A stretch of 64,000 nt of DNA from Giardia intestinalis (lineage: Eukaryota), in assembly GCA_000002435.2 (NCBI GenBank), contig CM018793.1, one strand, 5' to 3'. The notes below the pieces were generated by a model, which saw only the letters and a list, made by a program, of their open reading frames with translations, was not told the origin of the DNA and did no database searches. Each line of letters opens with the position of its first letter. The first letter of the stretch is position 1. Both the position numbers and the translations under genes were made by a program. Below, piece after piece: positions 14,909 to 28,231 of this stretch.

Positions 14909-17900
14909 CTATTCTTCTATCAGATCCATGAACGCTTGCTCGAAGCGGCAAGATTCAATAGTCCAGTAGTGTGAAGAGAGAATTTCAATGCGATCTAGAT
15001 CTAGCAGTACATCTGCAAGTAAGGAATTGGCTCCAAACATATATGTTACACAGCCGGTAGACTCTGACAACGTATGTCCGATAAGGCACGCGCCGCTTGG
15101 GGTTGCGTAGATCTTTTCGGTGTAACAAGATGCTAAAGATGCCAACTCTATGCCTGTCAGGAGAGAATGTACAGGCTCTATAGCCGAGCTGCTTGGCTGC
15201 AAAGCCACGGTCACGGAAAACTTTACCTTGCTACGACTACAGATTTCTGCCATGGTTCCTAGTGCGACAATCTCTCCTGATTTCATGATGCAGCACCTAT
15301 CTGCAAGGGCTTCTACTTCCTGCATGTCGTGCGTTGTCAGCATCATCGTGCGGCAGACACCGCGGCTTGCGATAATAGCCTTCCAAATGTCTGTCTTCAT
15401 GCGACTAGAGAGACCTGTGGTGATCTCATCAAGGCAAACCAAAGAGGGGGATGACACTATGACCATTGCAAGTGTAAGCCGGCGCTGCATACCTCCCGAA
15501 AGCTCCCTAGCGCGTTTGTGCATGTGGTCATACAATTCAACTGTCTGCAATACAACATGAATGCTCTTGATGTTTGGCCTCAAGTTCTTAGATGTTATAC
15601 CGGCCATGATAATCATGTGATCGAGTACAGTGAATTCTGGGTAGAGCAAGTCGTCCTGAGGAATGATTGTGAGGAGCTCTCCGTGACGCGTGGTCGGGTT
15701 GAATAGATTGACTTTGTGGGAGTCCTTATCGTTACGAATACACATTGCAGTCCCCCTAGTTGGGACGTGAAGCCCTGTGAGTGCGTGCATAAGCGTTGAC
15801 TTTCCTGCCCCATTCCCACCTAGAAGAGCGAAAACCTCTCCGTCGGCAATGCTAAAAGATATATCCTTTATCGCCACATTGCCACTTGGGTACTTATGAA
15901 AAACATTTTTGATATCCAAATGCGCTCTCTTGGCTGTGCTTTCGTTTAAGGAATAAGTAGACAAAGTACTAAACACACTTTGCATGGGCGTGCGAGTAAG
16001 TGCAAAGTCGTCTGCTGATCTTTCCAAAAATGTGGAGGTATGCATGGTGGATACGGAGGCAAAGGTATCTGGAAGTGTCGTGAAACTGGTGTATATCCTC
16101 GGGTCCTGAACATCTTGTTTGTGTACTGTAGAGCTGGACTTACATGCAGTGCACGTAGCACAACCATCGATGAAATATATAGCAACGAAGCAGAATCCTA
16201 GATGCACAAGGAAAATAGCAACACATGTAATAATCGGGCCTACATTAATGAATCCAAAAGAGACAGTATAGGTCAGCTCCCAAAAGACACCCAGCGACGG
16301 CAAAACAAGACTTAGCGCTAGAGATATAGGTTCATTCATTTTGATAATAGAACAGTAGATGATATTGATAAAGACTACAATAGAGATAAGAAGGATTGCC
16401 AACCGTACCTGTTTCACTAAGAGGGCAATAAGAATAGAATAAGTCGTACAATTGAAGCTGGCTAGTAAGTACAGAAATAGCAGGCACAAAATGGTTGTGG
16501 GAGGATTGCTCCACAAGAAGGCGGGTATAGACACAGAGAGAATCAGAATGCAGAGAAATGATGCTACAAAGGACCAGAGGGTGTAGTAGAGAATATGCGA
16601 TCCCAAGAATAGATGCTTGGAGATATTATGAAGTAGGAAGACCCGCAGTAATCGGTCTTCAATCTCGCGTGCCACCCGAATGCCTACTATTATCATTGGA
16701 ACAAGGAATACAAAAGGCATGACATAAGAAGTAAGAAGCTCCATCTGGCGCAGAAGCATAATGTGGTCACTTGGAAATGCAAATCTCGGATTTGAGAAAT
16801 ATGGCATCACTTGAACCTTGGCAGTATAGGTGAAGCTATACGCTACTGTCAGCGCTTGGTCATAAGAGGTGCCTCTCCCTAACTCAGCCTTCATGATGTC
16901 ACGCCGAAAGATAGAGCCAACAAATCTCACAACTTGATCAAGCATTGGAACAGCAAGGGAAGGGTCGATACGAAGGGGGTTCTGAAGCATATTGTATCCC
17001 AACGCACCAACACCACCGAAATACGGGAAGGCAGGCATGTTTGCACGATGGTTTGTGTTGTTGAATCTTAGATTGATATAGGTATTGGAGAAGCCGCGAT
17101 TTTGAGTCCCCATAGGAGGCAGGGGCCCATATAGTGTAAAGCTAAGCGCGTTCGGCGCAGATGATGAATGGATAGCAATCACTGCAGTGGGCATCCGCAT
17201 GAAGGCATCTCGGACAATAGAGATCCGCTTGGAAACATTCAGCGCCTCTGTTTGATCGGCATAGTTAACGGTCTTAGCCTGACCGTCATAGAACTCACGC
17301 ATCATACTCCGTACTGTTGAGAAATACACTATCCCTTCGTCTCTATAGATGCAGCTTTTTGCTTGGGTATCACTGGGACAGTCTCCAGAGGCCAACACCT
17401 TATATTCCGAGCCAGAGGGAATAAGACACTCGTACCTAGCTACAGATAAAATTGTCTTCGGAAAGTAATAGCTAAAGACGTTGTCTTCGTCCGTAGCCGG
17501 GGTCCTAAACTCCATTACACTATTAAGGCCATAAAATGGTGTGATAGTATCGTATGTGCTTAAGGGAATAATCCACTCCTGCGGCAATTTCATCTTGCTT
17601 AAAAGCAAAGTGAAGTCATCGCCCGGCCCTGTGTCTGTCTTCAGGCTGCGTAGCTCCACGCCACCCAGGTGAGGGTACCCAGCACTTCCAACCATTTTGC
17701 CCAACCAAGTTGGTGGCGCCTCCTCTGTTATCACTCCAAGATAGGCCCAATCGGCAATAGAAGAGTCCAGACCTTGCTGGGGCTGAATGTAAGCTCCGTC
17801 GCCAAGGACGTAGTATGAGGTGTTTGCTATGTCTAAGCCAAGAAACTTTGCATAGCTCTGACATACGGGAAGAGAACCCATATATTGGTAAAATGGCGCA

Positions 17901-20900
17901 AATAATGCAGAACTACGATCAGAAAAGCAGGTCTCGATAACCTCCTTCAATGGCTTATTGCCTGCTGTAGACCTACACGCAGAAATGCACCCCTCCGCAT
18001 AGGTTGCAGTCAGTGGTCTGAAAAGCTGCGCAGCAGACTCGGTTATTGTCTTAACTGAATTTGAAAGCATTGAAACAACGAGGGCAGTGGCTGCCACGTT
18101 AACTACAAGAACACCAATGAACTTCACAAAGTACTCGCGACAATCCGCTAACCAATTTTTATAAAACATATACTTCAATGGATTGGGACGTATGGGACGA
18201 ACAATCTTTTTGTGCATAGCAGCCGAGACTTGAGGTCCGCAAGTCTGTGAAGTGATTTCAGAAGGCTTATTGTCAACAAGTTTAACAAATACATCATCGA
18301 GACTAGCCTTGGAAAGCATATAATCGATTCCACAGTCTTTGCAAAATAACTCAATCCCTTGTGTAATAGGTATCACTAACGAGGAGTGGTCCAGAAAGAT
18401 GGATGGAATGGATATTTTGATAACATGTGGAAATACAGAGACTATCCTTATTTCGTCCAGACTCCCACTAGATGTAGAGTTCGGGGTAATATTGATAAGT
18501 GTCCTTCGCAGAAGGTCCACTGCCTTGTTTGCAGTAAACTCTGGTAATTCTGATAACAAGCTCAGGTCACCAAAGATGAGAGACAGCGTGTAGTCGCCGT
18601 GGCGGCGGCATAGTTCTAAGGGAGTGGATGCATGTATCGTTTTGCCATCTCGGAAGATGAGCACGTTGGTGGAGAGCTCTGCGACTTCGCCAGCATCATG
18701 AGTGGTAAGAATAGCCGACGCATCTCCCAGCTCGACTAAGTCCTTAACGAAGGCCCAGATCTGTCTCTTCAACAACGGATCAACCCCAGACGTGATTTCA
18801 TCAAAGAAGAAGATTGCAGGGTATCCAGCAGTAGCGTTGGCCAGTGCCAAGCGGCGCAGCATGCCGCCTGACAAGTCTTTCGCCAGCCTGGTCTGCACCG
18901 AAGAACTGGAAAGGTGGATCTTACGCAAGAGGAACTGGACATAATTATCCACGCTGCCATGCACTCCTAAGATTTTGCTGTCGTACGTTCCCAAGCTCTT
19001 GCTGCGGAAAATTGTGGAATAGTATACGTTTTCGTAAACAGACATTGCCATCCACACGTTAGTACGGTCTTGCGGACAGTACCCGATATTCGGCTTGAGG
19101 TAATAGGCATCATAAGGCGATCTTAGATCATAACGTTCCAGTACTTTAAATACTGGCTTCTGCATAGAATCCTCTAAGTCATCCGATGTGCTTTCAAACT
19201 TCAGTTCTCCGCTAAGGATATTCAAAAGCGTTGACTTTCCCCCTCCACTAGCTGCCACAAGGCCCAGAATTTCTTTTTTATGAAGTGTGAAGCTGAAATC
19301 ACGTAATGTGGTGTTCTGGCGCCTGCACGTCTTGTATGTCTTTCTCAAGCCACGTATTTCCAAAGTTGTTTTGCAGCTTTCTACTTCCAGTAAAAGTTTG
19401 CTTTGGTTGCGGCGGTGATCCTTTTGCACTGCCCAGAAGCGCTTTGAAACAAGAAAGTACCACGGTATTCCTCTCCAACTGAACTCTGGTTTGGAGTGCG
19501 TTAGCAAGAGAAGAAGAAGTGGAATAACCACCAGGCTTTGTAGCAGAGATACCAATACAAGCCACCACACCATGGGAAATTGAAAGACGCAATCACTGGA
19601 GCTTGTAGAGCTAATGCAAATACGTAAGGTTGAGTGGTAGTTATTCCAATCGCTTGTAATGAAGGAGATCGGAATTTTCGTGTAGTCAAGAGAGTTGAAT
19701 GAATAATTAAATCCACCTTCTGTCATCATTAAGAGCATATCAACTAGGGAAAAGCTACAAAACAGCGGAATCAAAACGATGAAGATCCATGTCACTTCCT
19801 TTGGGACTACAATGGGTTGCCAAAGACTAACCTTGGTATCAGAATGACTTAGAATTAAAAAGGGAATGATAACAAAGCACAGAACGCTGAATGCAGAAAG
19901 CACAAGGGACAGTGCAGGTGAATAAAAAAGGTATGCAAGCAAAAGCGCAAAGCCAGTGTTACCTAAGGCAAAAATAATTGCAAAGACAATAACAACAGGA
20001 TATTCAAACTCAGCAAATGGGTATGCCTTGATAAGGAAGTTGAGAGAGCAAAATACAATCATGGATATGAGGTTCAAAACGAGCAGACAGAGGGCGTTAG
20101 TGCATAGTAGGTGTATTTCTTTGACTCCTAAGCGCCGCAGACTGGTGTGGGTTCTACCACGGAAGGTACCCGCAACCACAGTCGATAAAATTAAATTCAG
20201 TCCCAGCGCAATACCCATGAAGCAGTATGTTCTGTTAATGAGATAGACAGTCGTATCTGACCGTTTTACATACATAGCAAGGTCGTATGTGTAGTCCATT
20301 CCGCGATAGTACTTTAGAATTGCTCCATCGACGAGTCTGTTGACAGTATAGCTGAGCGTAGTCCAGAAATTTGGATTCCAAAGGTCTCCTATAGAAAATG
20401 TTATATTATCCTTAGTTTGATAGACATATCGTGAAAGCATAGTTTGATTGTAATAGAGCACGTAACTAATAGAGCTGGGGATTGACTTCCCTGTTGGTGT
20501 AGAAATTGTTTGCTGGGATATAGAAAAGTCAAGTGCCAGGAAGATGTTGTGATAGGTATTAAGCGCATAGTCATATGCTGGTCGATAGTCATCGTAATTA
20601 ATTCCATAGATTGTAGAGATCATCTGCTGCGCACTTGGAATATCTAGTATATGAGTATTCGGGTCTATTTCATCATAGAGCGTCTTATTGCCATACTGTA
20701 AGTGTTCGCGCATAATAGTTTGCACATTGATGGAACTGATAAACTTGGCAGGATCTGGCCCCAGACCCAAGAGGGACATGTTTTTGATCATCTGATCACT
20801 AGAGTCAAAGCCCACAGTCCTGGTATTTGAAGTGGATAGATTAGAATTGTTGATGATTAGCTTTACCAGCTCCTGGGTCTCTTGAGTATTGGGAGAGTAT

Positions 20901-21124
20901 GCTAAATAGATAGTATTCTCTGTACAATAAAAACTCTGGTCACATGCCGGTAAAGAAGGCAGCTTCATAGCGGCTGGCATCCGGAGAGGAAATGGGAGAT
21001 TAGTGATGATTTCAAAGATCCCAAAGAGTGCCAAGAACACTAAAGTTGGAGACAGGACCAGTGCTGAAACGAGAAGTGCCCTCCTCCTGTATAGAAGCAA
21101 GGTAAATTCTAGGAGGGAAGGCAT
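14909..21124 (-). CDS. ABC transporter, ABCA-like full transporter (TMD-NBD-TMD-NBD), 2071 aa
   Basis: Two nucleotide-binding domains are present. Walker A motifs are GGNGAGKST and ASGGGKST. ABC signature motifs are LSGGMQRRL and LSGGMLRRL. Walker B motifs are LDEITTGL and FDEITSGVD. Each NBD is preceded by a multi-span hydrophobic domain. The start is a true ATG with an AT-rich upstream region. Confidence 0.9.
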   Translation of the reverse strand: MPSLLEFTLLLYRRRALLVSALVLSPTLVFLALFGIFEIITNLPFPLRMPAAMKLPSLPACDQSFYCTENTIYLAYSPNTQETQELVKLIINNSNLSTSNTRTVGFDSSDQMIKNMSLLGLGPDPAKFISSINVQTIMREHLQYGNKTLYDEIDPNTHILDIPSAQQMISTIYGINYDDYRPAYDYALNTYHNIFLALDFSISQQTISTPTGKSIPSSISYVLYYNQTMLSRYVYQTKDNITFSIGDLWNPNFWTTLSYTVNRLVDGAILKYYRGMDYTYDLAMYVKRSDTTVYLINRTYCFMGIALGLNLILSTVVAGTFRGRTHTSLRRLGVKEIHLLCTNALCLLVLNLISMIVFCSLNFLIKAYPFAEFEYPVVIVFAIIFALGNTGFALLLAYLFYSPALSLVLSAFSVLCFVIIPFLILSHSDTKVSLWQPIVVPKEVTWIFIVLIPLFCSFSLVDMLLMMTEGGFNYSFNSLDYTKIPISFITSDWNNYHSTLRICISSTSSSDCVFQFPMVWWLVLVSLLQSLVVIPLLLLLLTHSKPEFSWRGIPWYFLVSKRFWAVQKDHRRNQSKLLLEVESCKTTLEIRGLRKTYKTCRRQNTTLRDFSFTLHKKEILGLVAASGGGKSTLLNILSGELKFESTSDDLEDSMQKPVFKVLERYDLRSPYDAYYLKPNIGYCPQDRTNVWMAMSVYENVYYSTIFRSKSLGTYDSKILGVHGSVDNYVQFLLRKIHLSSSSVQTRLAKDLSGGMLRRLALANATAGYPAIFFFDEITSGVDPLLKRQIWAFVKDLVELGDASAILTTHDAGEVAELSTNVLIFRDGKTIHASTPLELCRRHGDYTLSLIFGDLSLLSELPEFTANKAVDLLRRTLINITPNSTSSGSLDEIRIVSVFPHVIKISIPSIFLDHSSLVIPITQGIELFCKDCGIDYMLSKASLDDVFVKLVDNKPSEITSQTCGPQVSAAMHKKIVRPIRPNPLKYMFYKNWLADCREYFVKFIGVLVVNVAATALVVSMLSNSVKTITESAAQLFRPLTATYAEGCISACRSTAGNKPLKEVIETCFSDRSSALFAPFYQYMGSLPVCQSYAKFLGLDIANTSYYVLGDGAYIQPQQGLDSSIADWAYLGVITEEAPPTWLGKMVGSAGYPHLGGVELRSLKTDTGPGDDFTLLLSKMKLPQEWIIPLSTYDTITPFYGLNSVMEFRTPATDEDNVFSYYFPKTILSVARYECLIPSGSEYKVLASGDCPSDTQAKSCIYRDEGIVYFSTVRSMMREFYDGQAKTVNYADQTEALNVSKRISIVRDAFMRMPTAVIAIHSSSAPNALSFTLYGPLPPMGTQNRGFSNTYINLRFNNTNHRANMPAFPYFGGVGALGYNMLQNPLRIDPSLAVPMLDQVVRFVGSIFRRDIMKAELGRGTSYDQALTVAYSFTYTAKVQVMPYFSNPRFAFPSDHIMLLRQMELLTSYVMPFVFLVPMIIVGIRVAREIEDRLLRVFLLHNISKHLFLGSHILYYTLWSFVASFLCILILSVSIPAFLWSNPPTTILCLLFLYLLASFNCTTYSILIALLVKQVRLAILLISIVVFINIIYCSIIKMNEPISLALSLVLPSLGVFWELTYTVSFGFINVGPIITCVAIFLVHLGFCFVAIYFIDGCATCTACKSSSTVHKQDVQDPRIYTSFTTLPDTFASVSTMHTSTFLERSADDFALTRTPMQSVFSTLSTYSLNESTAKRAHLDIKNVFHKYPSGNVAIKDISFSIADGEVFALLGGNGAGKSTLMHALTGLHVPTRGTAMCIRNDKDSHKVNLFNPTTRHGELLTIIPQDDLLYPEFTVLDHMIIMAGITSKNLRPNIKSIHVVLQTVELYDHMHKRARELSGGMQRRLTLAMVIVSSPSLVCLDEITTGLSSRMKTDIWKAIIASRGVCRTMMLTTHDMQEVEALADRCCIMKSGEIVALGTMAEICSRSKVKFSVTVALQPSSSAIEPVHSLLTGIELASLASCYTEKIYATPSGACLIGHTLSESTGCVTYMFGANSLLADVLLDLDRIEILSSHYWTIESCRFEQAFMDLIEE

Positions 21125-23036
21125 AGCCTGTAAAAATTAAATCGACAGGTGCTCAACCCTACAAACCAGGGTTTTATCCACAATTATAGTTGTTTCTCAA
21201 TTGGTGGAGGTACTAGGTCTGAGCCAAACTTGCGGCTCATACTTAGCACCCAAACTAAAAACGGAAGCCAATCTATAGGTATCGTAGCTAAATAACTTTC
21301 TTCACACAAGGATCATAAGCACACCGCTATTCGGTAGTTTATATAGACCTCGAAGCCCTGTGACTATTTGTAAAGTGAGACTCTATTCTATTACTCTATT
21401 TCATTTTTAGATATCATTTTGGGCTTCAGAATGCGGGACGATGACATAGAATTAGAGTTACGTGGTAAAGTTACAGACATATGAATTACGAGTGTCGCCA
21501 GGCCTCACGACCAGGCTGGTCTGACGAGCTTGCACAGAACAGGAGCCGGGACTCCTCTGTGTCTGCCTAGACCGCACTAGCCGGCGGAGAACCCAGTAAG
21601 GGGCAGATGCATTGAGGCCCCAGTGTTTGAGCCGTAAGGGACTAGGGCATCCAAAGGAGCTGCAGAGCACGCTTACCCCAGCGAGTCCTTGTCGTAGCTC
21701 TTCTCGTGTCCGATGCTCCCGCCCATAATTAGGTAGCGGATGTGTGGAACAGTGACCAGTCCAGCAGGACGTGACTGGCGGACGACCCCGCCTCATCGAC
21801 AACTGTGCACACTGGTGAGTCTCAAAGACAGACAGGGGCCATCCAGTTCGTAACGATCATCGGTAGGTGTCCTTTACGGCAGAGGAGAATGCGACCAACA
21901 GGCCACAGAGCTGCTTGCACAAAGTCCTTCCACCACTGACGCAGACCGACCCCTCGCAAGATCCTTAGCGGAGTTGCATCCGAGATGTGTGCCTGCGTTG
22001 CTGTCCAGGTGCATGTGCCGGCCTCGGTGCTTCCCACAAGCTTGCGAGCATCGAGCTGGCCTCTACCGAACCGTATCAGAAGTTAACGTCAAGACGTGGC
22101 CCCCTCAGTTAGCTTCTGCAGGCTCCCAGAGCTACGCACCAAGAGGCCGTTCTTCTTTGGTTGTGCAGCGTGGGGAGATACATCGAACTACCACACCCTC
22201 TCTGTGTGGCGTGGTTTACGACGGGGGACGGGATCCCTGTGCTCATGTCTATCTGCCCAGGGCCAGCCACAGCCCGGGTTGACGATGACAAGCGAACATC
22301 GCCCAGCTCCTTGTTAGCAGGTGGGAGATCTCGCCACCCTAGTACCCACAACAAAGGGTGCTGATCACTGGCAGAGAGACACGACACTCAGGCTCCCGCT
22401 CCTTCCACTGATGGTAGCCCACTATGAGGAGCCCTTTGCCGCCTGCACCAACAACCTCAGGCACCATGGGTCCGAATGCTTCTACGGTGGACAGCGGTAG
22501 CACTATGATGATCTGGGGTGACAGGAGTCCTGGCTCACTGGCTCAGGAGACAGCACGCTTTGGGCAATGCTTCCCTCCTGTCCAGATCTTGGAGGGCTGG
22601 CTGCCTTCCGGGCCCCATCTGGCACCTTGTTATGCGGTGGGAACTTTAGTAGCATTTAGTACACAAGATCAGAGCTATGCACACACCAGGCGAGAGCGTC
22701 TCATGGGCTTACCTCTGTTGGTCCACACTTCTACGGACCCGGTATCTCCCCAGGGACTGCAAGGATCCGCTTTCAGGTGCTATCCGCCAGGCAACCGGGC
22801 TGGCAAGGGTCGTCTGGGGGACGCCACAGGGACAGAGAGAGCACTGGCAGACGGAGGTCCGCAAGGGGTCGCCTCGCGCAGGGAAGGCACAAGGCCCAGC
22901 TCTCCGAGGATGTAGGGACACCGGAAGAGAGGTTGGCAGAGAGGCTGCAGGCATGTGGGTGGTCCCGTGCATATTCGTGGACTTTCTGTTTCCCTGCGCA
23001 GTGGGCTGAGTATCATAGGCTACACGTAGTGGATGC

Positions 23037-23043
23037 GTTTACT
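23037..23043 (-). terminator. Giardia polyadenylation signal AGTAAAC (AGTRAAY) downstream of the VSP stop
   Basis: The minus-strand sequence after the VSP reads TAG ATACTTAG GTAGTAAAC. This matches the established Giardia poly(A) signal consensus placed a few nt after the stop. Confidence 0.6.
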
Positions 23044-23053
23044 ACCTAAGTAT

Positions 23054-24805
23054 CTATGCCTTTCCGCGGCACAGGAACCACCAACACAAGAAGCCCACAA
23101 GACCACCAACAACAACAATCACAGCAACAGAGATGCCCGCGATCGCGCCGGTAGAAAGGCCACTCTTGTTGACGCTTCCGCCGTTGTCAGTGCCATCCAT
23201 CTTCACATAGCAGGTGACAGAACCGCTATCACCAGATGGTGGAGCACAACTCACGCAATTGGTCACGCCAGTAATTTGGCTGTCACTAGCATCACACTTC
23301 ACACACTTTGTTCCAGACTTATAGTACCCAGAGAAGCAAGTTTGACACTGCTGTGTCTGTCCTGCTGCGCACGTCTTGCAGGTGGAGTCGCACAGCGGGC
23401 ACACTCCGGTCCCGCTGTTTGGGTTTTGTCCATTCGCACATGTTTGGCATTTCCCTCCACTGTCAGTCGTGCAGATGCTTTTCCCGGGGAGCCTCGTCGT
23501 CTGGTAGCACCCGCCCTCCTGGATGAAGTATCCGGCGGCGCAGGCCGTGCAGGCACCGTCAGCGGCAGTGGTGCAGAACCGAGTCCTGGCCGCATTGCTC
23601 GTGCAGACGCCATTGAGCGGCACGTTGCTCCCCTTGCACTTCGAGCAGTACTTGGTACCTCCAATTGTTAGGCCGCACGTCTCGCACTCTGGACCCTCCA
23701 CGCATTGCTCCACGCACGTGCCGTCTGTAGGATTGCTCTCGTCGGCGTACCTCAGCATCTTCCCGGCGGGACAGGCCGTGCACTTGGAAGCGCCGGCCCC
23801 GCTGCACTCCGCACAGGAGGGGTCGCAGGGCCCGCACGTTTGCCCAACCGCGTACGACCCGGCCGGACAAGACGCCAAGCAAGCGTTCTTCTCTGGAGTG
23901 AGGAAGTAGTTACCTTGGCACTTTGTGCACGTCTGCTTGTCATCCGAGCACACCTCGCAGTTGGGGAGATTGCAATCAGGGGCGGGGACTCCGTCGCATG
24001 TGTTAGTCTCAGAGTTTGGTGTTCCCTGAGGGCACGCGGTGTAGCATCCTCCGCTGTAGAGGTAGGTGCTCCCCTGGCACGCCTTGCAGGTCCCGTCGGG
24101 GGCGTCCTGCGGCGTGCACTTGTCCTGCCCGTCCTTCGCCTGGCACGCCCCCTCGACCGGGACGTGGGTGGCCTGGCACTTCACACAGCGGGTGCCTGCG
24201 TCCTTCTTCTCACACTTTACGCAGGAGGCTTCACAGGGTTGGCAGACCCCGGCATCTGCATAGGTCCCGTCGGGGCACGCGGCGTAGCATCCTCCGCTGT
24301 AGAGGTAGGTGCTCCCCTGGCACGCCTTGCAGGTCCCGTCGGGGGCGTCCTGCGGCGTGCACTTGTCCTGCCCGTCCTTCGCCTGGCACGCCCCCTCGAC
24401 CGGGACGTGGGTGGCCTGGCACTTCACACAGCGGGTGCCTGCGTCCTTCTTCTCACACTTTACGCAGGAGGCTTCACAGGGTTGGCAGACCCCGGCATCT
24501 GCATAGGTCCCGTCGGGGCACGCGGCGTAGCATCCTCCGCTGTAGAGGTAGGTGCTCCCCTGGCACGCCTTGCAGGTCCCGTCGGGGGCGTCCTGCGGCG
24601 TGCACTTGTCCTGCCCGTCCTTCGCCTGGCACGCCCCCTCGACCGGGACGTGGGTGGCCTCGCATTTTGTGCAAACCTCTTTTTGCTGGCCATTTATATT
24701 GACATCTAGACAGTTATTTCCAGATGCACAATTTTGAGAGTTGGTGCACGATTTTGGATCTGCAAGCGCCAAGTAAGCGAATGCTAAACCTGCCAAGTAC
24801 AACAT
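23054..24805 (-). CDS. Variant-specific surface protein (VSP), 583 aa from first ATG
   Basis: The track ORF 23054..24826 begins with GTG. The first ATG gives MLYLAGLAFAYLALA, a signal peptide. The mature protein is rich in CxxC motifs and contains a GGCY motif. It ends with a TM helix and the invariant Giardia VSP tail ...FLCRGKA followed by a stop. AGTAAAC lies 8-9 nt after the TAG. Confidence 0.9.
   Translation of the reverse strand: MLYLAGLAFAYLALADPKSCTNSQNCASGNNCLDVNINGQQKEVCTKCEATHVPVEGACQAKDGQDKCTPQDAPDGTCKACQGSTYLYSGGCYAACPDGTYADAGVCQPCEASCVKCEKKDAGTRCVKCQATHVPVEGACQAKDGQDKCTPQDAPDGTCKACQGSTYLYSGGCYAACPDGTYADAGVCQPCEASCVKCEKKDAGTRCVKCQATHVPVEGACQAKDGQDKCTPQDAPDGTCKACQGSTYLYSGGCYTACPQGTPNSETNTCDGVPAPDCNLPNCEVCSDDKQTCTKCQGNYFLTPEKNACLASCPAGSYAVGQTCGPCDPSCAECSGAGASKCTACPAGKMLRYADESNPTDGTCVEQCVEGPECETCGLTIGGTKYCSKCKGSNVPLNGVCTSNAARTRFCTTAADGACTACAAGYFIQEGGCYQTTRLPGKSICTTDSGGKCQTCANGQNPNSGTGVCPLCDSTCKTCAAGQTQQCQTCFSGYYKSGTKCVKCDASDSQITGVTNCVSCAPPSGDSGSVTCYVKMDGTDNGGSVNKSGLSTGAIAGISVAVIVVVGGLVGFLCWWFLCRGKA
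24005..24700. repeat. 243-bp (81-codon) tandem repeat, ~2.7 copies, inside the VSP coding region; copies 2 and 3 are identical
   Basis: Track ORFs at 24066, 24309 and 24552 (+) and at 24231/24474 (-) give identical peptides spaced exactly 243 nt apart. On the coding strand the unit ATHVPVEGACQAKDGQDKCTPQDAPDGTCKACQGSTYLYSGGCYAACPDGTYADAGVCQPCEASCVKCEKKDAGTRCVKCQ is repeated. Confidence 0.85.
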
Positions 24806-26777
24806 TGCCCGCCGAATCACGCTCACACTAAGGGGCGATCAGATAGCAGTGGAAGCCGCCTCCACCGGGCCGCATGCATCCTTCAGCGTATCGCTGTGAG
24901 CACGCCGCAGTGTAGAACAAGAAGGCATTGGTGCTTTTCTGCGGTACCCAAGGACTGACAGCTGACTGGTGCCCTACTCAAGAGCATCCTATCGAGGCCA
25001 TCTGTTGCAGGCGGGCGTGGCTTGTGTATCGTTAAAGCCGCCATAATGTCGTGCCCTACAAGCTTTGGAAAAGTGTATAGCCCGCATGTGCATCATCCGT
25101 CAATTTGCTCTGCTAGGAGGTAGACAGCACTCATAAAGCGGGCTCCACTACCAAGGACCCTCTTCGAGAAAGGCATAGACGAACTTGAGGAGGCCTTCCA
25201 AGATAGCCAGGTTCTGCACTAATAGGCAGCGATGACGTTGGCACAGGAGATGCAGAATGTGACATGGCCTCACGACATGGCACATGAACATTTTAACACT
25301 GCCCACAAGGAAAGTCCATTGCGATAGTATGCATTGATATGTAAATGTTGTTGCTAGGCTCTTTGGTCGTGAGAAGATATTAGCCTCCTTTCTCAGTGAC
25401 GCGACTGTTCGATGCAGATCCTACACGAACAGCTTCTTCACTTTCGGGCGACACTCACTGAGTCCGCTTAGACGCTCTAACATCTCTGCCCGCCTGGGCA
25501 GGCGAAATACATGGATCCTTGGCCGTTCTAGGCAGGTGCCGCTGTGCCTCACCCCATTCGGCTGCTCGCTCCTCACGCCTTAGCATATTTGGCTGCAGCG
25601 CTGTAGGATCTGGGATACACCTTTGAGCGGCGCACAGCGTGCCGGGCACCTGGCCAAGCTTCACAAAAGACCCATGACAGCCAAAATGCGCAGCTCCGGA
25701 TCTATTCTCCTACGGACTCGGCGCACTCAGAGGGAAGGCTGCCGCAAGGTAGCTGGCCACGCCTCTTTATCTCCAGTGTCTTGTGGCTGATACATTGCTG
25801 CATCTTCTATCCAAGCAGCCAGCACGTGTCCGGAGTAACAAAGCATTCTATTGAGGAAACTTCTGTGTCAGGTAGCACCGCCATAGTAGCTTTTTTCATA
25901 TAGAAGAGCATCAAAGGTATCCCTGATAACCACAGACCCACATAGGCTTCAGCGTCATCATGGCCAGCAGCCAGTGCATCGTACCCTGTTTTTAACACGG
26001 CTAAACGTGTCAGAATGCTTACCGTACATCCATGAGCGGGTTGCATAGATAAAGTTCCTCTGACTTACGACTATAATTCTAAGTGGTGCACCGCGCTGCA
26101 AAGGTCGTCTGAGGACGGTGTGCCTCAAACGTCCTAACTCACTATACAGTTGCACCTAATCCCCCTGACCATTAAGTCGATAGGTCTGAACCGCTGGTCA
26201 CGTACTCCAAGATTAGGCGGCAGACGGCTTGAACTTCTATGACATCTCGCAGCTGGACTTACTGATTCAGACTTTCCATTCTGAGCTGGCGTGCTGCACT
26301 TAGTCCTGCACGCGTAAGATCCTCCGGTCACAAGTTCGCAGACAGTGAGAACCAGCCAAAAAGCCACGGGAAAAGAGAGTGAGGACTCAATGGTTCTAAT
26401 CCTTCCAAGGTACAACCGCTGAGTTACAGTTGTCTTGTAATAAAACCTGCATATACTCGCTGCACTGTATCAAATACTAGCGATCGTTGGATAACCACAA
26501 TTCTTCCACCCTTTGAGGTCTTAGTCCAGCTTATCTTTGTCCAATGTCCAGTGACCGGACGTGTTGTTCGACAGTGCTTTCTGGTCACGCTATTCACTTA
26601 ATAAGTTATTTCGTCGCGGAGAAACGTACTCAGTAACACAAAAAAGGTCATACAATGCGTACTGAAGTCAGGATCAATTGCATATATGCAAAGCTTATCT
26701 CTAAGCTCACATGATGATTGAAAAAAAGCTCACTAGCACTGGCACGGAAATAATATAGGAAAAGCAGCAAAGGCATA

Positions 26778-27542
26778 CTATAGGGTGAAGATTTTTGCTT
26801 TCGTGAAAAAATCATCGGCTTCACTTTGGCTTATGTCGTGCTGATATGAATCAAAGTTCTCGCCGTCATATGGCTCATCGAAATCACATCCGAGGCTCAG
26901 CTCGCTCATGTTTTCCTCACAGGACTCAGCTGGAGATGCTTTTATTATGAAGAGCAGAACAGTCGAGCGCTCTGCAGAGTAGAATATGAAGTTGTGACTC
27001 CACACTCCATCTGTGTCTTCAAATGGGTAGTAAGGCGAAGGATCTACCGTGTAGACAGAGGAAGCGTCGGCAGGTGCAATATCTGTTAGTGCGAGCCACA
27101 GCGACGGACGTATTGCGCTGTAGTCTGACAGAGTACTGATCAATGTGCTGTCAATTACTGTTTGACAGACGCTATAGGGAACCCAAAAGAACCGAGACGG
27201 CTGAATCAATGTGAAATCAAAGTGAGGATATGCCTGAGAAAGTGCCCGAATAACCTGTAAATATATCTGCCGCGTAGCTGGATTGTTAAGATTTTCTTCT
27301 GTAAATGCTGATGTAATCGAAGAGTTAAGAGATCCAAACGGCGATTGGGACTCTACGCTGCTTCCATAACTTCGTGCCATCTGTATTTGAAATTCTGCGT
27401 CTCTGTCTTGTTCAGAAGACGTAGCCTGAGACACTCGAAACCCATACAGCTCTATCCGTGTTGTGATAACAAGCCCATTACATGATAAGCGCGAGATGCT
27501 CTCCGACAGCACCTTAAGATCTGGTGCATCTATATACCGCAT
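26778..27542 (-). CDS. MAF1: Maf1-like RNA polymerase III repressor (254 aa)
   Basis: The N-terminal box LSCNGLVITTRIELYGFRV resembles the Maf1 A-box (IIGRIESYSCK). PHFDFTLIQPSRF resembles the Maf1 PDYDFS box. WSHNFIFYSAE resembles the Maf1 C-box WSFNYFFYNKK. There is an acidic C-terminal tail. The length matches Maf1 (~250 aa). Confidence 0.6.
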   Translation of the reverse strand: MRYIDAPDLKVLSESISRLSCNGLVITTRIELYGFRVSQATSSEQDRDAEFQIQMARSYGSSVESQSPFGSLNSSITSAFTEENLNNPATRQIYLQVIRALSQAYPHFDFTLIQPSRFFWVPYSVCQTVIDSTLISTLSDYSAIRPSLWLALTDIAPADASSVYTVDPSPYYPFEDTDGVWSHNFIFYSAERSTVLLFIIKASPAESCEENMSELSLGCDFDEPYDGENFDSYQHDISQSEADDFFTKAKIFTL

Positions 27543-27604: not shown

Positions 27605-28231
27605 ATGGAGCAAGAGCAGCGCCTTCTCGAGGTCTGCAGAACCCTAGATGTTAATTTTAACCGTCTCATAGAGCTGCCTAGAGGCGAGCAGGAATTTGAG
27701 TGGATTGCCTATCACATGTCATTATTCTTTAAGCACACCAAGCGGCTGTCTGCCATTACCTCATCCTTCTGTACATCCAATACATGCCCATCCATGTCTA
27801 TTTCTGAAACTCAAGACGTGATTGTATGTGTCGTTGAGACAGACGAGGGAAATTGCGATGATCTAGATAGCAGTGACATGGCTTCACCTGCCCACAAAAA
27901 TGGGCGCAGCATGTCTGCCCTTGAATACACAAACTCCGTACTATCATGGTACATCAACAAGCTGAGAGACCCGGAGCTTTTTCCCGTCGATTCTGCAAAC
28001 CAGTACCCCGAAGATTTCAAGAATAGATGTCGCCACATGCTACGCCGCCTTCTACACATTTACTTCCATGTGTACTTCAACCACTTTGGGATAGTTTTCA
28101 GGCATTTCCTCTTGTACTATAACACTTCCTTTCGCTATATGGTGGAATTTGGAGTACGCTATGACATCTTACGTGATGCAGACCTGCTTCCTATGGCCGC
28201 GGCTATTAACCACTGGAAATCTATGGCCTGA
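27605..28231 (+). CDS. MOB1: MOB kinase activator (Mob1/phocein family), 208 aa
   Basis: LPRGEQEFEWIAYHMSLFFKHTKRLSAITSSFCTSNTCPSMS aligns with human MOB1 [42 protein letters not shown]. The downstream LFP...F...HIYFHVYFNHF Zn/His cluster is also present. Start is a true ATG. It is divergent from MAF1 across a 62-bp spacer. Confidence 0.85.
   Translation: MEQEQRLLEVCRTLDVNFNRLIELPRGEQEFEWIAYHMSLFFKHTKRLSAITSSFCTSNTCPSMSISETQDVIVCVVETDEGNCDDLDSSDMASPAHKNGRSMSALEYTNSVLSWYINKLRDPELFPVDSANQYPEDFKNRCRHMLRRLLHIYFHVYFNHFGIVFRHFLLYYNTSFRYMVEFGVRYDILRDADLLPMAAAINHWKSMA

What the first reader, a model, noticed from the sequence alone, without database searches (positions are those of the whole stretch)
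21125..23053. GC-rich, ORF-free ~1.9 kb tract between the ABC transporter start and the VSP 3' end
Elsewhere in the window genes are separated by 7-120 bp. Here nearly 2 kb has no credible ORF. The only ORFs are short ones that overlap on both strands, as GC-rich non-coding DNA does. The tract is visibly GC-richer than flanking coding DNA. It is not similar to Giardia rRNA, which is far more GC-rich. No tRNA-like ends or RT/endonuclease motifs were seen. Candidates are a decayed gene or retroelement, a long non-coding or antisense RNA locus, or a VSP-locus-associated regulatory or recombination substrate.
Basis: seen in the sequence. Interest (0 to 1): 0.5.

Follow-up and report, generated by a model that had tools for sequence, protein, structure and literature searches.

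The report
GC-rich non-coding spacer beside Giardia VSP
The 1.9-kb gene-free stretch is real but ordinary for Giardia: it is the fast-evolving, GC-rich non-coding DNA that follows a variant-surface-protein (VSP) gene, plus the normal AT-rich upstream region of the next gene, and it belongs to the GC-rich, polymorphic "VSP islands" already described for this genome.

Summary
Window 21125-23053 lies between the ABC-transporter ATG and the VSP stop codon of Giardia intestinalis WB and has no credible gene. Every coding test was negative. These were six-frame Pfam, codon usage, substitution periodicity between isolates, frame-breaking indels, a search of the longest ORF against 1.84 billion proteins, and VSP-remnant searches against shuffles. 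No Rfam family, tRNA, repeat or excess RNA folding was found.

The tract has three parts:
- 21125-21480: ordinary AT-rich upstream DNA of the ABC gene, 80% identical in assemblage E.
- 21481-22673: a 58% GC block. It diverges 7.4% between sub-assemblages AI and AII, against about 2% at third codon positions nearby, and is essentially unalignable with assemblage E.
- 22674-23036: a VSP-proximal piece that is replaced between AI and AII.

The same layout recurs at this locus in assemblages A and E and at an unrelated P15 locus: VSP stop, poly(A) motif, a 1.2-1.55 kb block of 58-77% GC, then about 350-400 nt of AT-rich DNA before the next gene. Assemblage B shows the GC-rich flank but a shorter one, and the ABC gene is not its neighbour.

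The sequences are not similar to one another. Published work already describes VSP-associated high-GC, gene-poor, SNP-dense islands. The most likely cause is a by-product of VSP-centred recombination and GC-biased repair. A composition-defined function is not excluded.

The parts
14909..21124 (-). ABC transporter gene (2071 aa; KAE8304990.1 / XP_001709441.1). It is the downstream neighbour whose ATG bounds the tract.
   Evidence: ORF. Pfam ABC_tran x2. Exact match to the WB protein. The P15 ortholog is 88% identical at the nucleotide level.
21125..21480 (-). AT-rich (38-42% GC) upstream/promoter region of the ABC gene. It is ordinary Giardia intergenic DNA, with an AT-rich initiator-like motif directly before the ATG.
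   Evidence: GC profile. Only 4 substitutions against DH in 356 nt, about 1.1%. It is 80% identical to P15, against 75% at ABC third codon positions. The AT-to-GC boundary falls at the same alignment column in WB, DH and P15.
21481..22673 (.). GC-rich (about 58%) non-coding core of the VSP 3' flank. It is homologous between AI (WB) and AII (DH) but diverges several times faster than neighbouring near-neutral sites.
   Evidence: 91 substitutions in 21450-22673 (7.4%), spread 34/29/28 over the three phases, with indels of 1, 1, 1 and 2 nt. Third-codon divergence in flanking genes is 1.5-4.4%. Codon-usage score is <=0.02 bits/codon with changing frames. No Pfam, Rfam or structure signal. Homology to P15 fades at 21603.
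22674..23036 (.). VSP-proximal hypervariable flank. It is not alignable between WB and DH (about 320 nt in WB against about 420 nt in DH), so it is replaced together with the divergent VSP allele.
   Evidence: Searches give the breakpoint at 22673/22674. The 163-aa ORF has a counterpart of only 83 aa (P0123) that ends exactly at this breakpoint.
23037..23053 (-). Conserved motif ATACTTAGGTAGTAAAC immediately after the VSP stop codon. It contains AGTAAAC, the Giardia poly(A) signal type AGTRAAY; that identification rests on my own background knowledge.
   Evidence: ACTTAGGTAGTAAAC (CTTAGGTAGTAAAC in the DH extract as cut) follows the stop codon in five VSP flanks: WB, DH, and P15 L036, L029 and L030 (first 60 nt of each flank).
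23054..24805 (-). VSP gene (583 aa, CRGKA tail, three copies of a 243-nt repeat, CAATGTT initiator at the ATG).
   Evidence: Translation. Pfam VSP at 1e-115. Repeats. 99% identical to XP_001709440.1.
24806..26777 (.). VSP 5' flank, the second ORF-free gap (50% GC, patchy). Divergence against DH falls from 9% next to the VSP to about 1% by 25750.
   Evidence: It is alignable with P15 at 69-70% over 25497-26492.

Best explanation
The tract is non-coding DNA made of two different things.

Positions 21125-21480 are the ordinary AT-rich upstream region of the ABC-transporter gene.

Positions 21481-23053 are the 3' flank of the VSP gene. They form part of a roughly 5-kb VSP island that sits between conserved core genes (Maf1 and ABC) and has held a VSP since before assemblages A, B and E split.

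The flank encodes no protein and no recognisable or structured RNA. Its position and its high G+C are conserved, but its sequence is not.

My inference on how it got this way is as follows. VSP genes recombine and convert ectopically, using their conserved 3' end as homology. Repeated repair and heteroduplex tracts running into the 3' flank raise the substitution rate and push base composition towards G+C (GC-biased gene conversion). What remains is a GC-rich, hypervariable halo that stops where the next gene's AT-rich upstream region begins.

Shown here: the non-coding status, the composition, the divergence profile, the recurrence at other loci, and VSP exchange in front of the same flank.

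Inferred: recombination and biased repair as the cause, and the absence of a sequence-specific function.
For: Identity of the locus: the window is G. intestinalis WB. ABC, VSP and Maf1 match KAE8304990.1 / XP_001709441.1, XP_001709440.1 and KAE8304992.1. No gene is annotated in the gap in DH or in the P15 gaps.

Non-coding status:
- Six-frame Pfam gave 0 hits at E<=10.
- Codon-usage scores are at or below zero with inconsistent frames, against +0.1 to +0.25 in real genes.
- The 91 AI/AII substitutions show no 3-periodicity, and the indels of 1-2 nt break frames.
- For the longest ORF, the only significant hits among 1.84 billion representative proteins were its own truncated 83-aa counterpart and two repetitive proteins that I read as compositional.
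- The longest open frame is within shuffle expectation.
- VSP tblastn scores are no better than dinucleotide shuffles.
- No Rfam family, tRNA or ncRNA 3' motif was found. Folding z is about 0. There are no repeats.

Fast evolution: AI/AII divergence is 7.4%, against about 1% overall and 1.5-4.4% at third codon positions in flanking genes. It rises towards the VSP on both sides. A third haplotype exists. Assemblage E aligns only up to 21603, although third codon positions of ABC are 75% identical and the AT-rich part is 80% identical. Only faint residual similarity lies beyond.

A force that raises GC: four-fold degenerate sites of core genes are 43% GC, the tract is 58%, and the P15 counterpart is 68-77% even though the adjacent P15 VSP is only 48.5% GC.

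Recurrence: the layout of GC-rich 3' block followed by about 350-400 nt of AT-rich DNA and then the next gene is seen in WB, DH, P15 L036 and the unrelated P15 locus L029, with no sequence similarity between loci. A GC-rich 3' flank is also seen in GS L031, where the AT-rich step is weaker, and in P15 L030, where the contig ends inside the block.

Link to recombination: in P15, two different VSPs (194 aa and 654 aa) sit in front of the same flank. The flank differs at 11 of 704 nt, while the VSP 3' coding ends differ at 15 of 123 nt. In WB against DH, the VSP and about 360 nt of its flank are replaced.

Literature: VSP regions form high-GC islands (PMC2723961; PMC3091692). SNP- and heterozygosity-dense, low-coding regions coincide with VSPs (PMC4570179). 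VSPs have extended non-coding surroundings, and duplicated flanks run 139-729 bp (PMC2996952).
Against: - GC-biased conversion was not demonstrated. AI/AII differences could not be polarised; strong-to-weak and weak-to-strong differences are 46 against 37.
- A conversion-tract model predicts a gradient. The AT-to-GC boundary is sharp and sits at the same position in A and E. That fits a bounded unit or selection on composition at least as well.
- The 5' flanks of the same VSPs are not consistently GC-rich, so the process must be polar.
- Only four independent locus/lineage cases were examined.
- Transcription and chromatin state could not be examined at all.
Confidence: 0.6

Rival explanations
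1. The block is a composition-defined functional spacer. It would be kept GC-rich by selection and would act through composition rather than sequence. One possibility is an insulator or terminator zone free of the AT-rich, bidirectional Giardia initiators, separating the on/off VSP from the housekeeping gene downstream. Another is a flank that favours VSP cassette exchange.
For: Position, length (about 1.2-1.55 kb in three loci) and high GC are maintained in A and E and at an unrelated locus while the sequence is free to change. The AT-to-GC boundary is sharp and falls at the orthologous position in A and E. In P15 the block is far more GC-rich than its VSP. [quoted passage not shown]
Against: No motif, structure or conserved element was found. 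There are no G-quadruplex motifs in the WB and DH tracts, and GC skew is about 0. GC content differs widely between lineages (58% against 72%). There are no functional data of any kind. Elevated divergence is what relaxed or absent constraint predicts.
Confidence: 0.15
2. The tract is a locus for a long non-coding, antisense or small RNA. Examples would be an antisense VSP transcript starting in the flank and feeding the RNAi-type VSP silencing pathway, or VSP read-through RNA.
For: Not excluded. Giardia transcribes promiscuously and VSP control has been linked to RNAi; this rests on background knowledge and is summarised in PMC8957917. One 1362-nt Logan contig (L028, SRR9222558) spans 21869-23220 across the VSP 3' end, but the library type of that run is unknown.
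Against: No Rfam family was found. Folding energies are indistinguishable from shuffles over the GC-rich part. The Giardia ncRNA 3' motif is absent. There is rapid sequence turnover between AI and AII and almost no similarity to assemblage E. L028 has no poly(A) or poly(T) end.
Confidence: 0.1
3. The tract is a decayed gene, either a former VSP or other cysteine-rich gene of a tandem array or a dead retroelement, eroded beyond recognition.
For: VSP arrays and VSP pseudogenes exist in this genome (PMC2996952). The tract's GC content resembles that of the WB VSP. The L029 flank gave a marginal VSP-like score of 28.1 bits. That was above all ten shuffles in the first control (maximum 26.6) but below the shuffle maximum of 28.9 in the second.
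Against: No Pfam match in six frames at E<=10. VSP tblastn is not above shuffles for WB, DH, P15 L036 or GS. A VSP codon model scores negative in all frames. There is no tblastx similarity to the adjacent VSP. The P15 counterpart is far more GC-rich than its VSP and than any VSP examined. There are no terminal or internal repeats.
Confidence: 0.08
4. The tract holds an unannotated protein-coding gene, possibly with an intron or an unusual start, or it is an assembly artefact.
For: A 163-aa ATG ORF exists at 22424-22915.
Against: That ORF is cut to 83 aa in other assemblage-A haplotypes, exactly at the homology break. There is no periodicity, and the indels break frames. There is no codon bias. 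ORF length is within chance. The tract is present in independent assemblies.
Confidence: 0.02

Closest known systems
VSP-associated high-G+C islands of Giardia chromosomes (Franzen et al. 2009, PMC2723961; Jerlstrom-Hultqvist et al. 2010, PMC3091692)
   Same: The tract is next to a VSP, has higher G+C than the surrounding core genes, and has an atypical nucleotide signature. The phenomenon was described on WB scaffolds, the same genome as this window.
   Different: The published description is coarse (5-kb windows) and attributes the islands largely to the VSP and HCMP genes themselves. Here the GC-rich signal is shown to lie in about 1.5 kb of non-coding 3' flank, with a sharp boundary. In P15 the flank is much more GC-rich than the VSP.
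SNP-dense and heterozygosity-dense, low-coding regions around VSP/HCMP genes in assemblage A (Ankarklev et al. 2015, PMC4570179)
   Same: AI-versus-AII divergence rises several-fold in the gene-poor DNA around the VSP.
   Different: That study used 15-kb windows. Here the profile is resolved to about 100 nt. It shows a step at 21480 and a replaced segment at 22674-23036.
Extended non-coding regions and 2.2-3.8-kb spacers of vsp genes, with flanks duplicated for 139-729 bp (Adam et al. 2010, PMC2996952)
   Same: There are kilobase-scale ORF-free regions beside a VSP in an otherwise compact genome. Several hundred bp of flank travel with the VSP.
   Different: That paper emphasises upstream regions and inverted pairs. 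This VSP is a single gene, and the tract in question lies downstream of it.
GC-biased gene conversion at recombination-prone loci (invoked for Giardia rDNA in PMC10123126)
   Same: High G+C relative to neutral sites, combined with evidence of exchange.
   Different: Not demonstrated here, because no polarised substitution spectrum could be obtained. There is no similarity to rRNA.
GC-rich non-coding RUF6 elements interspersed with Plasmodium var genes (reviewed in PMC8957917)
   Same: GC-rich non-coding DNA beside antigenic-variation genes, standing out from the genome's base composition.
   Different: RUF6 is a conserved, transcribed, multi-copy sequence family. The Giardia flanks share no sequence between loci, and their transcription is unknown.

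Membership tests
VSP-associated high-GC, gene-poor, polymorphic island (Giardia) | Immediately adjacent to a bona fide VSP gene | tested here: met
   VSP with CRGKA tail, Pfam VSP at 1e-115. The tract starts at its stop codon.
VSP-associated high-GC, gene-poor, polymorphic island (Giardia) | G+C above the surrounding core genome | tested here: met
   About 58% GC in 21481-23053, against 47% in core coding DNA, 43% at four-fold sites and 34-42% in most short intergenic gaps.
VSP-associated high-GC, gene-poor, polymorphic island (Giardia) | Low coding content | tested here: met
   All coding tests were negative. No gene is annotated in DH or P15.
VSP-associated high-GC, gene-poor, polymorphic island (Giardia) | Elevated AI/AII SNP density | tested here: met
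   7.4% against about 1% in flanking genes.
Protein-coding gene or recognisable pseudogene | Conserved reading frame, with substitutions concentrated at third codon positions and indels in multiples of 3 | tested here: not met
   Substitutions fall 34/29/28 across the three phases. Indels are 1, 1, 1 and 2 nt. The ORF is truncated in other haplotypes.
Protein-coding gene or recognisable pseudogene | Homology to a known protein family | tested here: not met
   Six-frame Pfam gave 0 hits at E<=10. For the 163-aa ORF, phmmer against 1.84 billion proteins returned three hits at E<=0.001: its own haplotype variant and two repetitive proteins read as compositional. VSP tblastn scores equal those of shuffles.
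Giardia retroelement (GilM/GilT/GilD) | Reverse-transcriptase or endonuclease coding remnants | tested here: not met
   No RT or endonuclease Pfam match in six frames.
Giardia retroelement (GilM/GilT/GilD) | Nucleotide similarity to the reference elements, and multiple genomic copies | not testable with these tools
   The Gil sequences and the rest of the WB genome could not be searched. There is no second copy in the window or in the 36 fetched loci.
Structured or known non-coding RNA | Match to a curated RNA family | tested here: not met
   Rfam 15 gave 0 matches at E<=1 for 20500-27500. The P15 counterparts also gave 0. No tRNA was found.
Structured or known non-coding RNA | Thermodynamic stability beyond composition, and conservation across assemblages | tested here: not met
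   Folding z-scores range from -2.0 to +1.8 over the GC-rich part, with means of -0.27 and -0.09 for the two strands over the whole tract. It is unalignable with P15 beyond 21603.
Structured or known non-coding RNA | Discrete transcript | not testable with these tools
   No expression data were available. The library type of contig L028 is unknown.
GC-biased gene-conversion tract | Excess of weak-to-strong fixations, or high-frequency weak-to-strong alleles | tested here: inconclusive
   Unpolarised counts are 46 against 37. No outgroup is alignable within the block.
GC-biased gene-conversion tract | Evidence of recombination or exchange at the site | tested here: met
   In P15, two different VSPs are joined to the same flank. 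In WB against DH, a segment is replaced at 22674-23036 and the VSP is mosaic.

The most novel reading that the evidence does not exclude
Giardia VSP genes carry a 0.6-1.5-kb non-coding block directly after their poly(A) signal. Its high G+C (58-77%, against about 43% at nearby neutral sites), its position and its sharp distal boundary are maintained across assemblages A, B and E and at unrelated loci, while its sequence turns over freely. On this reading it is a composition-defined cis element. It might be an initiator-free insulator or terminator that isolates the switching VSP from its neighbour, or a flank that promotes VSP cassette exchange. It would then not be a passive by-product.
Probability: 0.15. 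Interest if true: 0.6.

Novelty: already known. Interest (0 to 1): 0.25.

Why it matters
As it stands, this explains an apparent anomaly as a local instance of a documented feature of Giardia chromosomes, so no new gene, RNA or mobile element needs to be proposed.

The fine-scale picture is modestly useful. The GC-rich signal of VSP islands resides in non-coding DNA on the 3' side. It has a sharp boundary that is positionally conserved, and it evolves several times faster than neighbouring near-neutral sites. That gives a concrete, testable handle on how VSP loci recombine. It also allows a test of whether base composition around VSPs plays any part in their regulation.

Tried and rejected
- Self-comparison of the tract with the other VSP flank and the whole window by blastn and tblastx found nothing.
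- Direct, inverted and tandem repeats: only the VSP's own 243-nt repeat is real. A 27-nt imperfect repeat at 21490/25255 was judged to be chance.
- Rfam on the tract and on two P15 counterparts found nothing. ARAGORN found nothing.
- The Giardia ncRNA 3' motif CCTTYNHTHAA is absent from the tract.
- Exact look-ups of the window's ABC and VSP proteins, and of the WB paralogue P0006, failed because WB gene positions are not on record.
- Protein searches with Maf1 and the ABC N-terminus returned almost no Giardia orthologues. Orthologues were reached through cluster membership instead.
- P0004, the closest P15 VSP, turned out to lie at a different locus. It was still useful as an independent example.
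- A look-up through the SDR gene gave only contigs that end inside the ABC gene.
- A literature search for run SRR9222558 found nothing.
- A global alignment with free end gaps was uninformative and was replaced by local alignment against shuffles.
- G-quadruplex motifs and GC skew showed no signal in WB or DH.
- ORFs of the very GC-rich P15 blocks, up to 331 aa, have no meaningful Pfam domains; the only hit was far below threshold at E 0.35.
Full report
**What the window is.** Pfam identifies the flanking ORFs. There is an ABC transporter at 14909-21124 (minus strand). There is a Giardia variant-specific surface protein at 23054-24805 (minus strand; CRGKA tail, E 1e-115). Maf1 is at 26778-27542 (minus strand) and Mob1 at 27605-28231 (translation). 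Exact-sequence look-ups match the ABC protein to KAE8304990.1 / XP_001709441.1 and Maf1 to KAE8304992.1 of G. intestinalis WB, on a 4.02-Mb chromosome. The VSP is 99% identical to XP_001709440.1. ABC and Maf1 carry accessions KAE8304990 and KAE8304992. That numbering leaves room for only one gene between them, so I infer that the reference annotation has no gene in either VSP flank.

**The observation.** The coordinates are exact.
- The longest ORF inside 21125-23053 is 163 aa. The longest open frame is 165 codons, and 11% of 300 dinucleotide shuffles reach that length.
- This gap (1929 nt) and the other VSP flank (1972 nt) are the two largest gaps in the window.
- Composition is not uniform. 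21125-21480 is 38-42% GC. GC jumps to about 60% at about 21480 and stays at 53-69% up to the VSP.
- For comparison, core coding DNA of the window is 47% GC, four-fold degenerate sites are 43%, most short intergenic gaps are 34-42%, and the VSP is 61%.
- The tract is present in isolate DH (assemblage AII, GCA_000498715.1) and in an independent short contig at 99.9% identity. It is therefore not an assembly artefact.

**Is anything encoded?** Every test I could run says no.
- Six-frame translations with stops masked match no Pfam family even at E<=10, so there are no VSP, reverse-transcriptase or endonuclease remnants.
- A codon-usage log-odds model trained on the window's genes gives <=0.02 bits per codon with changing best frames. 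Real genes give +0.1 to +0.25 in a constant frame. A VSP-trained model is negative throughout.
- Against DH, 21450-22673 carries 91 substitutions distributed 34/29/28 over the three phases, plus indels of 1, 1, 1 and 2 nt.
- The 163-aa ORF, searched against 1.84 billion representative proteins, finds two repetitive proteins, which I read as compositional matches, and an 83-aa ORF. The 83-aa ORF is the same stretch from another assemblage-A haplotype, and it ends exactly where WB and DH lose homology at 22673.
- tblastn with 120 VSP proteins scores no better on the tract than on dinucleotide shuffles.
- Rfam (E<=1), ARAGORN and the Giardia ncRNA 3' motif give nothing.
- RNA folding z-scores over the GC-rich part scatter around zero, as in a coding control.
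- There are no repeats and no similarity to the other VSP flank or the rest of the window.

**Comparative anatomy within assemblage A.** Aligned to DH, divergence is about 1% in the flanking genes (1.5-4.4% at third codon positions) and about 1.1% in 21125-21480. It steps up at 21483 to 4-8% through 22500. WB and DH cannot be aligned over 22674-22996. The VSP is 81% identical. On the other side, divergence falls from 9% near the VSP to about 1% by 25750. The compositional step and the divergence step coincide. Transition bias is high but equally so elsewhere. A third haplotype exists.

**Other assemblages.** Orthologues were reached through cluster membership.
- In P15 (assemblage E), the ABC orthologue is again preceded by a VSP in the same orientation, at a gap of 1647 nt. 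That gap consists of about 1.2 kb at 68-77% GC followed by about 400 nt at 30-42% GC.
- Homology with WB runs from the ABC gene (88% identity, 75% at third positions) through the AT-rich segment (80%). It fades over the first 120 nt of the GC-rich part (68-71%) and stops at 21603. Only faint residual similarity lies beyond.
- Near-neutral sites are still 75-80% identical between A and E. Ordinary neutral drift would therefore have left the block alignable. It must either evolve several-fold faster, consistent with the AI/AII result, or have been replaced.
- The AT-to-GC boundary falls at the same alignment column in WB, DH and P15.
- The P15 Maf1 contig carries the positional orthologue of the WB VSP (194 aa), followed by 679 nt at 70-74% GC, where the contig ends.
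- That end is the same sequence as the first 704 nt of the ABC-side block (11 substitutions). The last 123 nt of the two VSP genes differ at 15 positions. Two different VSPs are therefore joined to one flank, with the junction at the conserved VSP 3' end.
- In GS (assemblage B), an unannotated VSP-like sequence lies 3.9 kb downstream of Maf1. It is followed by about 600-770 nt at 56-71% GC. The ABC gene is not adjacent there.
- An unrelated P15 VSP locus (L029) shows the same layout: stop codon, ACTTAGGTAGTAAAC motif, 1.2 kb at 61-71% GC, about 350 nt AT-rich, then the next gene.
- None of these blocks resembles another in sequence, and none has Pfam or Rfam matches.
- The 5' flanks of the same VSPs are not consistently GC-rich.

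**Interpretation.** The tract is the ordinary AT-rich upstream region of the ABC gene (21125-21480) plus the non-coding 3' flank of the VSP (21481-23053).
- The flank's high G+C cannot be a neutral equilibrium, given 43% at four-fold sites.
- It is also not a spill-over of VSP composition. In P15 the flank is 72% GC beside a VSP of 48.5%.
- Some GC-raising process acts there persistently, together with an elevated substitution rate and episodic replacement.
- The explanation that fits best is recombination and gene conversion centred on the VSP, seeded in the conserved 3' end that all VSPs share, with GC-biased repair of tracts running into the flank. The P15 junction and the WB/DH replaced segment show that exchange happens at exactly this place.
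- The biased-repair step is inferred, not shown, because the substitutions could not be polarised.
- The sharp and positionally stable distal boundary and the 3'-side polarity are not obviously predicted by a simple conversion gradient.
- For that reason I keep a composition-selected spacer or insulator as the main rival (0.15). An RNA-producing locus is at 0.10 and a fully eroded gene or element at 0.08. A real coding gene or an artefact is effectively excluded.

**Comparison with the literature.**
- Franzen et al. 2009 reported that WB regions where VSPs localise have higher GC than their surroundings. [quoted passage not shown]
- Jerlstrom-Hultqvist et al. 2010 described islands of above-average G+C and atypical signature created by VSP and HCMP genes, and the mobility of VSPs (PMC3091692).
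- Ankarklev et al. 2015 found that SNP-dense and heterozygosity-dense regions coincide with low coding content and VSP/HCMP genes (PMC4570179).
- Adam et al. 2010 noted extended non-coding regions at vsp genes, 2.2-3.8-kb spacers between paired vsps, and flanks duplicated for 139-729 bp (PMC2996952).
- The finding is therefore an instance of a known feature of this very genome.
- I did not find the fine structure described in the papers searched. By fine structure I mean the 3'-side non-coding location of the GC signal, the sharp conserved boundary, the several-fold rate excess, and the recurrence without sequence similarity. The library is incomplete, and my sample is only four locus/lineage cases.

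**Verdict.** Novelty is low and interest is 0.25. There is a 0.15 chance that the block is a composition-defined functional element of VSP loci, which would be considerably more interesting.

Noticed in passing
window 24021-24749 (inside the VSP gene): The 243-nt tandem repeat is present in three copies here, giving a VSP of 583 aa. The older WB model XP_001709440.1 is 421 aa, and the DH allele is 500 aa. Repeat copy number therefore differs between assemblies and isolates.
   Followed up: partly
window ~25307-25425 and ~15309: Short-read (Logan) contigs from many different isolates all end at about 25307-25425 in the VSP 5' flank, and at about 15309 inside the 3' part of the ABC gene. The cause is unknown. 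It could be a repeat elsewhere in the genome, heterozygosity or a coverage drop.
   Followed up: no
L030:13646-14450 and L036:8231-9057 (P15 contigs ACVC01000188.1 / ACVC01000189.1): Two different P15 VSP genes (194 aa and 654 aa) are followed by the same GC-rich flank. The flank differs at 11 of 704 nt, while the conserved 3' coding ends differ at 15 of 123 nt. This could be allelic VSP replacement, a recent duplication or an assembly fork.
   Followed up: partly
L031:14656-15810 (GS, ACGJ01002272.1): There is an unannotated VSP-like sequence, with N-terminal and C-terminal matches, 3.9 kb downstream of Maf1 in assemblage B. The ABC gene is not adjacent there. In GS_B (L032) the same place holds a 1559-aa product on the opposite strand whose only Pfam record is a faint EGF_2 hit.
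   Followed up: partly
window 21125-21480: The AT-rich segment upstream of the ABC gene is long for a Giardia promoter region. It is 80% identical between assemblages A and E, against 75% at third codon positions. Only 21125-21275 shows a folding z of -2.9 (plus strand) and -2.2 (minus strand). The obvious hairpin at about 21220-21240 is not maintained in P15.
   Followed up: partly
window 21490-21516 and 25255-25281: There is a 27-nt imperfect direct repeat (74% identity, 11-nt exact core GGCCTCACGAC). Its first copy lies exactly on the AT-to-GC boundary of the tract, and its second lies in the VSP 5' flank. Given the number of such pairs in 6 kb, it is probably chance.
   Followed up: partly
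L036:1-5372: In P15 a second ABC-transporter gene (1979 aa) lies upstream of the VSP that precedes the ABC orthologue. The gene order around the VSP therefore differs from WB and DH, where Maf1 is the upstream neighbour.
   Followed up: no
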